The position numbers and the translations under genes were made by a program. Positions 31,196-34,879 of a stretch of DNA of 64,000 nucleotides are shown here, one piece after another. Where the stretch lies: positions 41,184,001 through 41,248,000 of the forward strand of contig CP068257.2 in the NCBI GenBank assembly GCA_009914755.4, written 5' to 3'. The DNA is from the human T2T-CHM13v2.0 reference genome, Homo sapiens. Position 1 is the first letter of the stretch, and every line of letters begins with the position of its first letter. Under the pieces are notes generated by a model, which saw only the letters and a program-made list of their open reading frames with translations, was not told the DNA's origin and did not search any database.

Positions 31196-31703
31196 TCCAT
31201 GTTCATGGATTGAAAGAATCAATATTGTTAAAATGTCCATACTTACTCAAAGCAATCTATAGATTCAATGCAATCCCTATCAAAATACCAATGACATTAT
31301 TCACAGAAATATAAAAAAAATCCTAAAATTTATATCAAACCAGCAAAGACTCAGAATAGCCAAAGCTATCCTGAGCAAAAAGAACAAAACTAGAGGAATC
31401 AGATTATCTGACTTCAAATTATACTACAGAGCTATAGTAACCAAGGTGCTAAGATTACAGGTGTGAGCCACCACACTTGGACTTGGCTCCTGTGAGTGTT
31501 TTTGTTTCTTTTTTTTAATTTTTAATTCTTGTGGGTACATAGTAGGTATATATATTTATGGGGTACATGAGATATTTTGGTACAGGCATCCAATGCATAA
31601 TAATCTCATCATGGAATATTGGATTTCTAGCTCCTCAAGCATTTATCTGTTGTGTTACAAACAATCCAATTATACTCTTTTAGTTATTTTGAAATGTATA
31701 ATT

Positions 31704-31990
31704 AGGCTGAGCACCGTGGCTCATGCCTGTAATCCCAGAACTTTGGGAGGCTGAGGGGGGTGGATCACCTGAGGTTGGGAGTTCGAGACCAGCCTGACCA
31801 ACATGGAGAAACCCCGTCTCTGCTAAAAATACAAAATTAGCTGGGCGTGGTGGTGTGTGCCTGTAATCCCAGCTACTCAGGAGGCTGAGGCAGAAGAATC
31901 GCTTGAACCCAGGAGGCGGAGGTTGCAGTGAGCTAAGATCATGCCGTTGCACTCCAGTCTGGGCAACAAGAGCAAAACTCCGTCTCAAAA
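31704..31990 (+). mobile_element. Alu SINE inserted in the inverted L1 segment
   Basis: ggctgagcaccgtggctcatgcctgtaatcccagaactttgggaggctgagg... Confidence 0.9.
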
Positions 31991-32001
31991 TAATTATATA
32001 G

Positions 32002-32028
32002 ATAGATAGATAGATAGATAGATTACAA
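32002..32028. repeat. (TAGA)n microsatellite
   Basis: tagatagatagatagatagataga. Confidence 0.9.
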
Positions 32029-33086
32029 TTAAATTATTATTGACTATAGTCACCCTGTTGTGCTATCAAATACTAGGTCTTATTCATTTTGTCCATTTTT
32101 TTCCCCCATTAACCATCCCCACCTCCCCTACCCTCCCACTACCCTTCCCAGCCTCTGGTAACCATCCTTCTACCTTCTATGTCCGTGAATTCAATTATTT
32201 TGATTTTTAGATCCCACAAATAAGTGAGCACATGTGATGTTTGTGTTCTGTGCCTGATTTATTTTCTTTAACATAATGACCTCTAGTTCCATCTATATTG
32301 TTGCAAATGACAGGGTCTCATTCTTTTTAATGGCTGAATAGTACTCCACTGTGTATATGTACCACATTTTCTTTATCCATTCCTCTGTTGATAGATACTT
32401 TGGTTGCTTCCAAATCTTGGCTAGTGTGAATAGTGCTGCAACGGACATGGGAGAGCAGCTAACACTTGGATAGACTGATTTCCCTTCTTTGGGTCATATA
32501 CCCAGCAGTTTGATTGCTGGTAGTTCTATTTTCAGTTTTTTGAGGAACCTCCAAACTGTTCTCCATAGTGGTTATAGTAATTTACATTCCCACCACCAGT
32601 CTATGAGGGTTCCCTTTTCTCCACCTCCTCGCCAGCATTTGTTATTGCCTGACTTTTGGATAAAAGCTATTTTAACTGGAGTGAGATGATATCTCATTGT
32701 AGTTTTGATTTGCATTTCTCTGATGATCAAGGATGCTGAGCACCTTTTTGCATGCCTGTTTGCCATTTGCAAGCCTTCCTTTGAGAAATGTCTATTCAAA
32801 TCTTTTGCCCATTTTTAAATCAGATTATTAGATTGTTTCCTATAGAGTTATTTGAGCTCCTTATATATTCCGGTTATTAATCCCTGTCAGATGGTTAGTT
32901 TGCAAATCTTTTCTCTCATTCCGTGGGATTTCTTTTCATTTTTGATTGTTTCCTTTGCAGTGGAGTAGCTTTTTAACTTGATGTGATCCCATTTGTCCAT
33001 TTTTGCTTTGGTTGTCTGTTCTTGTAGGGTATTACTCAAGAAATTTTTGCCCTGACCAATGTTCTGGAGTTTCCCCAATGTTTTCT

Positions 33087-33395
33087 TTTCTTTTTCTTTG
33101 AGACGGAGTCTCGCTCTGTCACCCAGGACGGAGTGCAGTGGTGTGACCTTGGCTCACTGCATCCTCCACCTCCTGGGCTCAAGGGATTCTCGTGCCTCAG
33201 CCTCCCGAGTAGCTGGGATTACAGGCATGTGCCACCATGCCTGGCAATTTTGTGTGTGTGTGTGTGTGTGTTTTTAGTAGAGATGGGGTTTTACCATGTT
33301 GGCCAGGCTGGTCTCGAATTCCTGACCTCAAGTGATCCACCTGCCTCAGCCTCCGTTAAGTGCTGGGATTACAGGAGTGAGCCACTGCCCCTAGC
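33087..33395 (-). mobile_element. Alu SINE (reverse) with internal (GT)n
   Basis: gagacggagtctcgctctgtcacccaggacggagtgcagtgg...ttttgtgtgtgtgtgtgtgtgtgttttt... Confidence 0.9.
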
Positions 33396-33467
33396 CCCCA
33401 GTGTTTTCTTGTAGTAGTTTCATAGTGTGAGGTTTTAGATTTGTCTTTTTTTAAAAAAAATTATTTC

Positions 33468-33671
33468 ATTTTTTTGAGACAGGGTCTGGCTCTGTTACCC
33501 AGGCTGGAGTGCCGTGGCACAATCATGGCTCACTGCAACCTCCACCTCCCAGGCTCAGGCCATTCTCCCACCTCAGCCTTCCAAGTAGCTGGGACTACAG
33601 GCACATGACACCATGCCTGGCTAATTTTTGTATTTTTTGTAGAGAAGGGGTTTCACCATGTTGCCTGGCCA
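33468..33671 (-). mobile_element. Alu SINE, truncated (reverse)
   Basis: gagacagggtctggctctgttacccaggctggagtgccgtggcac... Confidence 0.85.
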
Positions 33672-34879
33672 GATTTAAGTCTTTAATCCATTTTGATTTG
33701 ATGTTTGTATATGGTGAGAGAGATAAGGGTCTACTTTCATTCTTCTGAATATGAATATCCAATTTTCCCAGCCCCATTTGTTGAAGAGATTATCCTTTCT
33801 CCAACGTATGTTCTTGGCACCTTTGTCAAAAGGGAGTTCATTACAGATGTATAGATTTGTTTCTGGGTTCTCTGTTCTGTTCCATTGGTCTATGTGTCTG
33901 TTTTTATGCCAGTACCTTACTGTTTTGGTTACTATAGCTCTGTAGTATAATTTGAAGTCAGATAATCTGATTCCTTTAGTGCAGATGCCATGTTAATCTG
34001 ATGGTCAAGGTTAACATCACCACCAATGGGCCACATTAAAGCTGTGTGCCCTGGCAGGATGCAGTGAGAGCTCTGCGTCGCTTTCACCATCTTCCTGCCC
34101 AAGAGGCATCACCTGAGCCTCATCGTGGGGGAATCGTCAGCCCAACCCGCAGTGAGGGGCGGGGGCTCCACAAGACACCTGGCCTGTGATCATCCAAGGG
34201 CAAAGTCCTGAAAGTCAAGGAAAGATGGAAAAGCTGTTCCAAGGAACAGCTCGGACCACTAAATGCAACAGACCACTAAATGCAAACACTAAATGCAGAG
34301 ACATGACCACTAAATGCAACAAGGGATCCTGGAAGGGACTCTTGTGCTGTAAAGGACGTCGCTGGGGCCATTGAGGAAACTCGAACAGGACCTGTGGATC
34401 AGATAATCATGATACATCAGTGCTGATTTCCCGATTTCTATGTCTAGATGTGGTTACGTAGGAAAACATCCCTGTTCGTAGGTAGTTCACACTAACATAT
34501 TTGGTGGTGGGTTATCATGGTGACAACTCAATTGGTTGAGAAAAAAAACAAACCCTTTGTGATATTCTTACAATGAGTGAATGAGTGAGTGAATGCTAAC
34601 CCCTCACCACAGTACAGGAAGGTTACAACAAATGCAGTCATAAAGACTGGCTTCAGCCACCCTCTGCAGCCAAACCCATGTGATGGGCCTACAAGTCATC
34701 CAAAGTGTGCTCATTCATTCATTCGATGTACATTCATTCATTCCTTCCACATATATTAAGCACCTCTTGTGTGGACGGGACCGCACAAGGTTCAGGGAGC
34801 CAAGGACAAAGAAAGCCGTGTCTTCTCTCAAGGAGACAACAGTCTAGTCCATTGTAAGGTTTGACTTTGTGTTTTTTGG

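What the first reader, a model, noticed from the sequence alone, without database searches (positions are those of the whole stretch)
31400..33990. L1 with in-place inversion of its 3' ~2.5 kb and a ~50-bp inverted duplication at the breakpoint (not twin-priming topology)
The plus-oriented L1 (5'UTR through ORF2) ends at 31460 with ...ggaatcagattatctgacttcaaattatactacagagctatagtaaccaa. From about 31497 the same element continues in reverse complement, starting with its poly-A/3' terminus. It runs back to exactly the same ORF2 position at 33985. There the identical 50 bp is present inverted (33932-33985), sharing the same derived substitutions. Shared private mutations argue that both segments come from one inserted copy and were rearranged afterwards. 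The poly-A is internal, so this is the opposite of canonical twin priming, where the 5' part is inverted and the poly-A sits at the outer end. A short Alu-tail scrap (31448-31485) sits at the junction. The element also carries the internal ORF1 duplication noted separately.
Basis: seen in the sequence. Interest (0 to 1): 0.5.

Follow-up and report, generated by a model that had tools for sequence, protein, structure and literature searches.

The report
Old L1 with later-inverted 3' end
An ancient full-length L1 retrotransposon had its last ~2.5 kb flipped in place long after it inserted, leaving a 56-base inverted duplicate at the break; this is a real but ordinary DNA-rearrangement scar, not a new kind of retrotransposition.

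Summary
A plus-strand L1 (5'UTR, ORF1, ORF2p residues ~20-885) ends at 31444. The rest of the same element (ORF2p 867-1275, 3'UTR, poly(A)) lies reverse-complemented at 31517-33980. An exact 50-nt inverted repeat (31395-31444 / 33925-33974) extends to 56 nt with one mismatch.

Both copies share three substitutions that differ from the consensus of 77 related L1 copies, and one of these occurs in none of the 77. Both segments are about 7% diverged from that consensus and have the same nearest relatives.

The L1's 3' target-site duplication sits inverted inside the flipped block. It abuts the poly(A) and matches the 14 nt directly 5' of the L1 start (p≈0.02). The duplicate copies differ at 1 of 56 sites, where about 7 differences are expected if the duplication dated from insertion.

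Twin priming, dual priming, L1-L1 recombination and two independent insertions are therefore rejected. The best reading is a post-insertional in-place inversion with duplication at one breakpoint, CCAA microhomology, and loss of most of a downstream Alu. The "Alu-tail scrap" is actually an Alu 5' head. Orthologues could not be examined. Interest is low to moderate.

The parts
24006..24019 (+). 5' target-site duplication of the L1 (AAAAACAACACAGG), directly abutting the L1 5' end
   Evidence: Matches rc(31489-31503) at 13 of 15 aligned columns. The alignment is anchored at the L1 start on one side and at the poly(A) on the other. Shuffle p=0.022 in 25x25-nt windows.
24020..31444 (+). L1 5' segment in original orientation: about 2.3-kb 5'UTR, ORF1 (ATG at 26311), and ORF2 codons ~1-885. 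Interrupted by nested Alus and one 255-bp insertion.
   Evidence: Sequence read. ORF2p residues 20-884 are matched colinearly in nine frame-shifted pieces. The start GGAAAAGAGGTGGAGCAAGATGGCC resembles the canonical L1 5' terminus with its YY1 box (my own knowledge, not tested here).
31389..31444 (+). Copy A of the 56-nt breakpoint duplication (ORF2p residues 867-885)
31441..31444 (.). CCAA microhomology at junction 1, shared by the L1 (GTAACCAAAACAG) and the antisense Alu (CCAAAGTGCT)
   Evidence: The Alu alignment extends to consensus position 42 when these 4 nt are included. Copy B shows that the L1 natively has CCAA here.
31445..31482 (-). Remnant of the 5' head (about positions 1-38) of an Alu that lay just 3' of the L1 before the inversion. 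The distal breakpoint lies in it.
   Evidence: Local alignment to an Alu consensus gives 24/27 and 28/32. No copy at least 90% identical exists elsewhere in the window, so a local templated filler is unlikely. The remainder of the Alu is absent at 33981 onward.
31483..31488 (-). 6-nt original flank between the 3' TSD and the Alu head
   Evidence: Read directly from the sequence.
31489..31503 (-). 3' target-site duplication of the L1 (AAAAACACTCACAGG on the minus strand), now inverted and internal
31504..31516 (-). L1 poly(A) tail (AAAAAAAAGAAAC on the minus strand), now internal
   Evidence: Read directly from the sequence.
31517..33980 (-). L1 3' segment, inverted: 3'UTR and ORF2 codons 1275 back to 867. 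Carries three nested Alus (about 31705-31993 +, 33085-33395 -, 33441-33663 -).
   Evidence: ORF2p residues 869-960 and 980-1267 matched. Alu extents.
33925..33980 (-). Copy B of the 56-nt breakpoint duplication. One post-duplication G>A at 33976 (window + strand; partner of 31393).
33981..34560 (+). Right flank: non-L1, non-Alu older repeat-like sequence ending in an A-run. Junction 2 is at 33980|33981.
   Evidence: No Alu continuation was found. An independent Logan contig is identical across 33934-34909.

Best explanation
A full-length L1 inserted on the plus strand by ordinary target-primed reverse transcription, producing a 14-15-nt target-site duplication. It then decayed for most of its residence time. 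Several Alus landed in it, and another Alu lay 6 nt beyond its 3' TSD.

Much later, a single DNA rearrangement inverted 2,536 bp in place (31445-33980). The inverted block contains the L1 from ORF2 codon 867 to the poly(A), the 3' TSD, 6 nt of flank and the first ~38-42 nt of the downstream Alu. At the proximal breakpoint, 56 nt of ORF2 ended up on both sides of the block in inverted orientation. At the distal breakpoint, the rest of the Alu and an unknown length of flank were lost.

The following are shown: the structure, the single-element origin, the inverted internal TSD, and the late timing.

The mechanism is inferred. I favour a replication-based double template switch (about 50% given an inversion). 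In this model the nascent strand leaves the template at ORF2 codon 885 and re-primes on the opposite strand at the Alu through CCAA microhomology. It copies back 2.5 kb to codon 867, then switches forward again further downstream. That gives duplication at one end and deletion at the other in one event.

A plausible trigger is the head-to-head inverted Alu pair formed by the downstream Alu and the nested Alu at 31705-31993, separated by a 218-nt spacer. Such a pair can form a hairpin and stall a fork.

The alternative within the same explanation (about 35%) is breakage with a 56-nt stagger at the proximal site, fill-in and end joining.

The feature has no evident function. It is a rearrangement scar.
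For: - Exact 50-nt (56-nt with one mismatch) inverted repeat, unique in the window.
- Complementary ORF2p coverage: 20-884 versus 869-1267.
- Three shared derived states in the duplicate relative to 77 relatives: A in 12/77, G in 0/77, T in 16/77. No independent copy exceeds 54/56 identity.
- Equal divergence of the two segments from the family consensus: 6.9% versus 6.7-7.9%.
- Same nearest relatives for both segments.
- TSD match anchored at the L1 5' end and at the poly(A), but in inverted orientation and internal (p=0.022). No TSD supports the minus segment as an independent insertion (p=0.89).
- Only 1 difference between the duplicates, where about 6.7-7.8 are expected if the duplication arose at insertion (P=0.004-0.009; 0.06 if post-insertion decay were only 4%).
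- CCAA microhomology at junction 1.
- The Alu head remnant sits head-to-head with a full Alu 218 nt away.
- Junction 2 reproduced in an independent assembly.
[quoted passage not shown] Inverted Alu pairs form hairpins, block forks and provoke template switching. In addition, 63 of 203 non-recombination human-chimpanzee inversions have a retrotransposon at only one breakpoint (PMC2603318).
Against: - No orthologous or ancestral allele could be examined, so the pre-inversion state is reconstructed, not observed.
- The TSD is short, A-rich and imperfect (13/15, p≈0.02).
- The dating rests on a single substitution and on a consensus built from a mixed set of contaminant L1 copies.
- The missing remainder of the Alu requires an extra deletion, or else the scrap is filler DNA.
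- Junction 1 has no independent confirmation.
- Nothing in the sequence discriminates replicative template switching from staggered breakage plus end joining.
- That the distal Alu was once full length is assumed.
Confidence: 0.85

Rival explanations
1. One-step aberrant retrotransposition, a new TPRT or twin-priming variant. Two nicks about 59 nt apart flank the segment 31445-31503. One 3' end primes on the poly(A) and the other primes internally at ORF2 codon 885 through TTGG/CCAA. The two cDNAs therefore diverge from a central piece of target DNA, leaving the poly(A) internal.
For: - A short overlap duplication and microhomology at an internal priming site are typical of twin priming (PMC2837659).
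- The poly(A) abuts an A-rich, endonuclease-like site.
- Shared derived substitutions would also be expected from a single RNA template.
Against: - All described variants keep a poly(A) or poly(T) at an outer end next to a TSD; here it is internal.
- The 14 nt 5' of the L1 start match the 15 nt after the poly(A) in inverted orientation (p=0.022). Under this model that match would be coincidence.
- The duplicates differ at 1/56 sites, versus about 7 expected for a duplication as old as the element.
- The model still needs extra breaks and loss of the rest of the Alu.
Confidence: 0.05
2. Two independent L1 insertions of the same subfamily in opposite orientation that happen to abut and overlap by about 50 nt.
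For: Old L1 fragments in opposite orientation are common. Several independent relatives are identical to the consensus across this conserved 56 nt.
Against: - The plus segment lacks a 3' end and poly(A), so it cannot be a complete TPRT product.
- There is no continuation of the plus L1 beyond 33981.
- There is no TSD for the minus segment (p=0.89).
- The overlap shares three non-consensus states, including one seen in 0 of 77 copies. The joint frequency is roughly below 1e-3.
- The coordinates are exactly complementary.
Confidence: 0.01
3. Inversion by non-allelic homologous recombination between two inverted retrotransposons (retrotransposon recombination-mediated inversion).
For: This is a known source of primate inversions (PMC2603318). 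Many inverted Alu pairs lie nearby.
Against: - The breakpoints lie in non-homologous sequences (L1 ORF2 versus an Alu head) that share only CCAA.
- Recombination would leave two chimeric elements and no duplication or deletion. Here there is a single L1 equivalent, a 56-nt duplication and a deletion.
Confidence: 0.02
4. Assembly artefact in the source sequence.
For: Junction 1 has no independent confirmation.
Against: - Junction 2 is reproduced exactly in an independent short-read assembly, which ends inside the inverted repeat as a de Bruijn graph would.
- A misjoin would not create a precise 56-nt inverted duplication, carry the TSD, or leave microhomology.
Confidence: 0.02

Closest known systems
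Twin-priming L1 5' inversions (Ostertag and Kazazian model; poly(T) variants and dual priming reviewed in PMC2837659)
   Same: One L1 is split into two oppositely oriented segments that meet at the same internal position. There is a short overlap duplication, and microhomology at one junction.
   Different: The segment order is reversed: the segments are convergent and the poly(A) is internal rather than at an outer end. The TSDs are inverted relative to each other, with one buried inside. About 59 nt of non-L1 flank, including an Alu head, sits between the segments. The duplication is much younger than the element.
[quoted passage not shown]
   Same: One copy of the breakpoint sequence stays with the fixed flank and the other travels to the far end of the inverted block in inverted orientation. 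The 56-nt size is within the reported range (58 and 534 nt in the O7 case).
   Different: Only the proximal breakpoint carries a duplication; the distal one shows loss of sequence. The inversion is only 2.5 kb and lies within and next to retrotransposons in a primate genome.
Replication-based template switching (FoSTeS/MMBIR, serial replication slippage) provoked by closely spaced inverted Alu pairs
   Same: Duplication at one junction and deletion at the other, 4-nt microhomology, and an inverted Alu pair with a 218-nt spacer at the distal breakpoint.
   Different: Not demonstrable from one allele. That the distal Alu was originally full length is inferred.
Retrotransposon recombination-mediated inversion and the retrotransposon-associated inversions between human and chimpanzee (PMC2603318)
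   Same: A small primate inversion with retrotransposons at the breakpoints. It resembles the 63 of 203 cases where microhomology rather than homology was proposed.
   Different: There is no homologous inverted pair spanning both breakpoints, so it is not an RRMI event.

Membership tests
Twin-priming L1 inversion | Inverted 5' segment followed by a sense 3' segment whose poly(A) abuts the 3' flank (divergent arrangement) | tested here: not met
   The sense 5' segment (24020-31444) is followed by an antisense 3' segment. The poly(A) is internal at 31504-31516. Topology compared with PMC2837659 Figure 1 legend.
Twin-priming L1 inversion | Direct target-site duplications flanking the whole composite insertion | tested here: not met
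   The best TSD pair is 24006-24019 with rc(31489-31503), which is inverted and internal. No match exists between the left flank and the right flank at 33981 onward beyond chance (p=0.07, not positioned at the junction).
Twin-priming L1 inversion | The junction duplication arises at insertion, so it should be as diverged as the element | tested here: not met
   1 difference in 56 nt, against 6.7-7.8 expected at 6-7% decay per copy (P=0.004-0.009).
Dual priming / 5' poly(T) twin-priming variants | Poly(T) and/or poly(A) at the outer ends of the insertion, next to TSDs | tested here: not met
   The outer ends are the L1 5' terminus (24020) and ORF2 codon 867 (33980).
Post-insertional in-place inversion (break-and-rejoin or template switching) | Both segments derive from one inserted copy | tested here: met
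   Complementary coordinates, shared derived substitutions, equal divergence, same nearest relatives.
Post-insertional in-place inversion (break-and-rejoin or template switching) | Original flank markers (3' TSD, downstream flank) are carried inside the inverted block in inverted orientation | tested here: met
   The TSD at 31489-31503 is inverted and abuts the poly(A) (p=0.022). It is followed by 6 nt of flank and an Alu head.
Post-insertional in-place inversion (break-and-rejoin or template switching) | Inverted duplication of breakpoint sequence at the two ends of the inverted block | tested here: met
   56-nt duplication at the proximal breakpoint only. The distal breakpoint shows loss instead.
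Post-insertional in-place inversion (break-and-rejoin or template switching) | A non-inverted ancestral allele exists in outgroup species or in the population | not testable with these tools
   No primate genomes are available. Attempts through protein and contig look-ups and collection scans found nothing useful.
Retrotransposon recombination-mediated inversion (RRMI) | Two homologous elements in inverted orientation spanning both breakpoints, yielding chimeric elements without gain or loss | tested here: not met
   The breakpoints are in L1 ORF2 and an Alu head and share only CCAA. A duplication and a deletion are present.

The most novel reading that the evidence does not exclude
The inversion is evolutionarily recent. 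One substitution between the duplicates suggests roughly the last 10-15% of the element's residence time, possibly restricted to humans or the African apes, or even polymorphic. In this reading it was triggered by a closely spaced head-to-head Alu pair that was largely destroyed in the process. That would make it a base-pair-resolved germline example of hairpin-provoked template-switch inversion. It would also be a reminder that some 'inverted L1s' counted as twin-priming products are later rearrangements.
Probability: 0.3. Interest if true: 0.35.

Novelty: new member of a known kind. Interest (0 to 1): 0.22.

Why it matters
The practical value is modest. First, it is a clean worked example of how to tell a post-insertional inversion from a twin-priming product: the order of segments, the position and orientation of the TSDs, and the divergence between the junction duplicates. 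Genome-wide counts of L1 inversions that assume twin priming could be slightly inflated by such cases. Second, if the event proves lineage-specific or polymorphic, it is a usable phylogenetic or structural-variant marker. Its breakpoints (56-nt duplication, CCAA microhomology, a lost partner of an inverted Alu pair) would then document how inverted Alus destabilise primate DNA. No function is implied.

Tried and rejected
- Looked for other L1 copies inside the window to serve as comparators. Only Alu matches and the known ORF1 repeat were found.
- Looked for the remainder of the Alu at 33981 onward. It is absent; only a weak 23/28 antisense Alu-like stretch at 34041-34066, probably chance.
- Looked for a local template for the Alu scrap. 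None within 3 mismatches in 64 kb.
- Tried to reach orthologues or other samples through junction-spanning ORFs. The junction-2 ORF gave one identical Logan contig, was not in the clustered protein collection and has no homologues.
- The junction-1 ORF and two neighbouring ORFs are not on record.
- Scanned genome contigs and viral contigs for a 20-mer of the right flank. No hits.
- A first consensus-divergence calculation that counted gaps suggested the two segments differed (6.0% versus 9.8%). Excluding gap columns removed the difference, so the first result was discarded.
- An unconstrained TSD shuffle test was weak (p=0.12). The position-constrained test is the relevant one.
- L1-endonuclease-like sites at the proximal breakpoint were inspected by eye. 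They are not convincing (TTTT/G at best), so no role for L1 endonuclease is claimed.
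Full report
**What is in the sequence.** The window is primate-like DNA, dense in Alus. From 24020 a full-length L1 runs on the plus strand. It has a ~2.3-kb 5'UTR beginning GGAAAAGAGGTGGAGCAAGATGGCC, an ORF1 ATG at 26311, and then ORF2. 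Three-frame translations searched against solved structures match human ORF2p (8uw3/8sxt numbering) colinearly from residue ~20 to 884. The match is broken into nine pieces in different frames and interrupted by Alus, so the copy is old and decayed.

The plus-strand L1 stops at 31444. From 31517 to 33980 the minus strand carries the L1 3' terminus, the 3'UTR and ORF2p residues 1267 back to 869. This is preceded at 31504-31516 by a T-run, which is the poly(A) tail.

The two segments overlap at ORF2p residues 867-885. An exact 50-nt inverted repeat lies at 31395-31444 and 33925-33974, each arm unique in the window. It extends to 56 nt (31389-31444 and 33925-33980) with one mismatch.

**Is it one element?** The window has no other L1 covering this region. 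I therefore fetched 80 related L1 copies that occur as host contamination in metagenome contigs. Of these, 77 cover the 56 nt. Their majority sequence differs from both window copies at three positions:
- A at 31392, seen in 12/77 copies.
- G at 31402, seen in 0/77 copies.
- T at 31407, seen in 16/77 copies.

Copy B has one further G>A. No independent copy is more than 54/56 identical to copy A, while copy B is 55/56.

Outside the overlap, the plus and minus segments are equally diverged from the majority consensus: 6.9% over 797 sites versus 7.9% and 6.7% over 290 and 554 sites. An earlier figure that counted gaps was misleading and was discarded.

The same loci are the nearest relatives of both segments (Spearman 0.62, p=5e-6; best locus L002 at 87.3% and 85.9%). 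Two independent insertions are effectively excluded. The plus segment also has no 3' end of its own, and the minus segment has no target-site duplication (p=0.89).

**Insertion-time or later?** Shared substitutions alone do not settle this, because one RNA template would give the same pattern. Two other observations do.

First, the 14 nt immediately 5' of the L1 start (24006-24019, AAAAACAACACAGG) match the 15 nt immediately after the poly(A), read in the sense of the inverted segment (rc of 31489-31503, AAAAACACTCACAGG). The match is 13 of 15 columns and is anchored at both element ends, with p=0.022 in position-constrained shuffles. The L1 therefore has a normal TSD pair, but the 3' copy is inverted and buried inside the block. 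Only an inversion of DNA after integration does that.

Second, a duplication made at insertion should by now show about 6.7-7.8 differences between its copies, given 6-7% decay per copy. One is seen (Poisson P=0.004-0.009; 0.06 even if decay were only 4%).

**Topology versus retrotransposition models.** Classical twin priming, its poly(T) variants and dual priming all attach each cDNA to the target flank that primed it. A poly(A) or poly(T) therefore ends up at an outer end next to a TSD (PMC2837659). Here the segments are convergent. The outer ends are the L1 5' terminus and ORF2 codon 867, and the poly(A) is internal. The membership tests for these families fail.

Recombination between inverted retrotransposons (PMC2603318) also fails. 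The breakpoints lie in unrelated sequences, and there is a duplication plus a deletion rather than a reciprocal exchange.

**The junctions.** Between the two L1 segments lie 59 nt of non-L1 DNA, all in minus orientation:
- the inverted TSD,
- 6 nt of flank,
- 38 nt that align to positions ~1-38 of an Alu consensus.

When the preceding CCAA (31441-31444) is included, the Alu alignment runs to position 42. Copy B shows that the L1 natively has CCAA there too, so junction 1 has 4-nt microhomology.

The rest of that Alu is not at 33981 onward. No near-identical Alu in the window could have served as a template for filler. The simplest reading is that a resident Alu just downstream of the L1 was broken at about position 40, and that the remainder plus an unknown stretch of flank was lost.

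That Alu lay head-to-head with the full Alu nested in the L1 3'UTR (about 31705-31993, 88% to consensus), separated by 218 nt. Closely spaced inverted Alu pairs are known to form hairpins, block forks and provoke template switching (PMC2603318 introduction).

**Mechanism.** The post-insertional, in-place inversion of 31445-33980 is well supported (confidence about 0.85). How it formed is inference. I favour a two-step template switch during replication or break-induced repair:
- The nascent strand leaves the template after codon 885.
- It re-primes on the opposite strand at the Alu through CCAA.
- It copies back to codon 867.
- It then switches forward further downstream.

This yields duplication at one end and deletion at the other in a single event.

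The alternative is a 56-nt staggered break that was filled in and end-joined, as in the models of Kehrer-Sawatzki, Matzkin and Ranz summarised in PMC7584159, combined with resection at the distal break. The present allele cannot discriminate between them.

**Timing.** Three shared derived changes against one private change in the duplicates places the event late in the element's history, roughly the last 10-15%. This rests on a single substitution and has a very wide interval.

**Independent support and limits.** A public Logan contig (SRR8571313) is 100% identical to 33934-34909. It confirms junction 2 and ends inside the inverted repeat, as a k-mer assembly would. Junction 1 could not be confirmed independently.

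No primate orthologues are reachable with these tools. Attempts through proteins and collection scans found nothing.

**Verdict.** This is a new instance of a known kind of event: a microhomology-associated small inversion with a breakpoint duplication, here inside a decayed L1. It has no evident function. Its interest lies in being a clean counter-example to the default 'inverted L1 = twin priming' reading, and in possibly being lineage-specific.

Noticed in passing
window 27156-27410 (compare 26660-26843): A 255-bp insertion interrupts L1 ORF1. It consists of about 90-115 nt of unrelated AT-rich sequence followed by a second copy of an ORF1 stretch that is only about 78% (gapped) to 89-90% (ungapped blocks) identical to the resident copy. 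The resident ORF1 resumes at 27411 exactly where it stopped at 27155. The low identity means this is not part of the late inversion event. It could be an old internal duplication or a captured fragment of another L1.
   Followed up: partly
window 24925-25970 (L1 5'UTR): The 5'UTR is unusually long, about 2.3 kb including one Alu. It contains about three degenerate tandem units of about 260-315 nt (for example 25005-25309 vs 25576-25887, 61%; 25379-25532 vs 25693-25842, 66%; 25168-25278 vs 25431-25544, 68%). This is reminiscent of monomeric L1 promoters. TRF did not report it.
   Followed up: partly
window 31445-31482 and 31705-31993: The Alu head remnant and the full Alu nested in the L1 3'UTR are head-to-head with a 218-nt spacer. 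Before the rearrangement this would have been a closely spaced inverted Alu pair, a known unstable configuration. Now only a 38-nt arm is left.
   Followed up: partly
window 34254-34321: Four tandem copies of a 17-nt unit (GACCACTAAATGCAACA) lie inside the older, non-L1 repeat-like sequence that forms the right flank. That sequence ends in an A-run near 34545-34557 and looks like a 5'-truncated older retroposon. Family not identified.
   Followed up: no
window 29312-29454 and 31998-32023: Microsatellites have grown from Alu tails: (GAAA)/(AAAGAGAG)/(GAAG)n over about 140 nt after the Alu at about 29028-29320, and (ATAG)6.5 after the Alu at 31705-31993.
   Followed up: no
window 33441-33663: A 5'-truncated antisense Alu (consensus positions 88-289) is nested in the inverted L1 segment. 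It is flanked by an apparent ~9-11-nt duplication of L1 sequence (AGATTTGTC / AGATTTAAGTC), so it is an ordinary insertion unrelated to the inversion.
   Followed up: partly
L001 (Logan SRR8571313_74638) versus window 33934-34909: The independent contig stops 41 nt into the exact inverted repeat. Short-read graph assemblies break at this 50-nt inverted repeat, so short-read structural-variant callers may handle this locus poorly.
   Followed up: no
L012-L015, L078 (metagenome contigs): Several metagenome assemblies from different projects carry virtually identical L1 fragments that are only about 73% identical to the window copy. Presumably this is contamination from a common non-primate or distant host. 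In total, 312 L1-encoding stretches were found in the metagenome collection.
   Followed up: no
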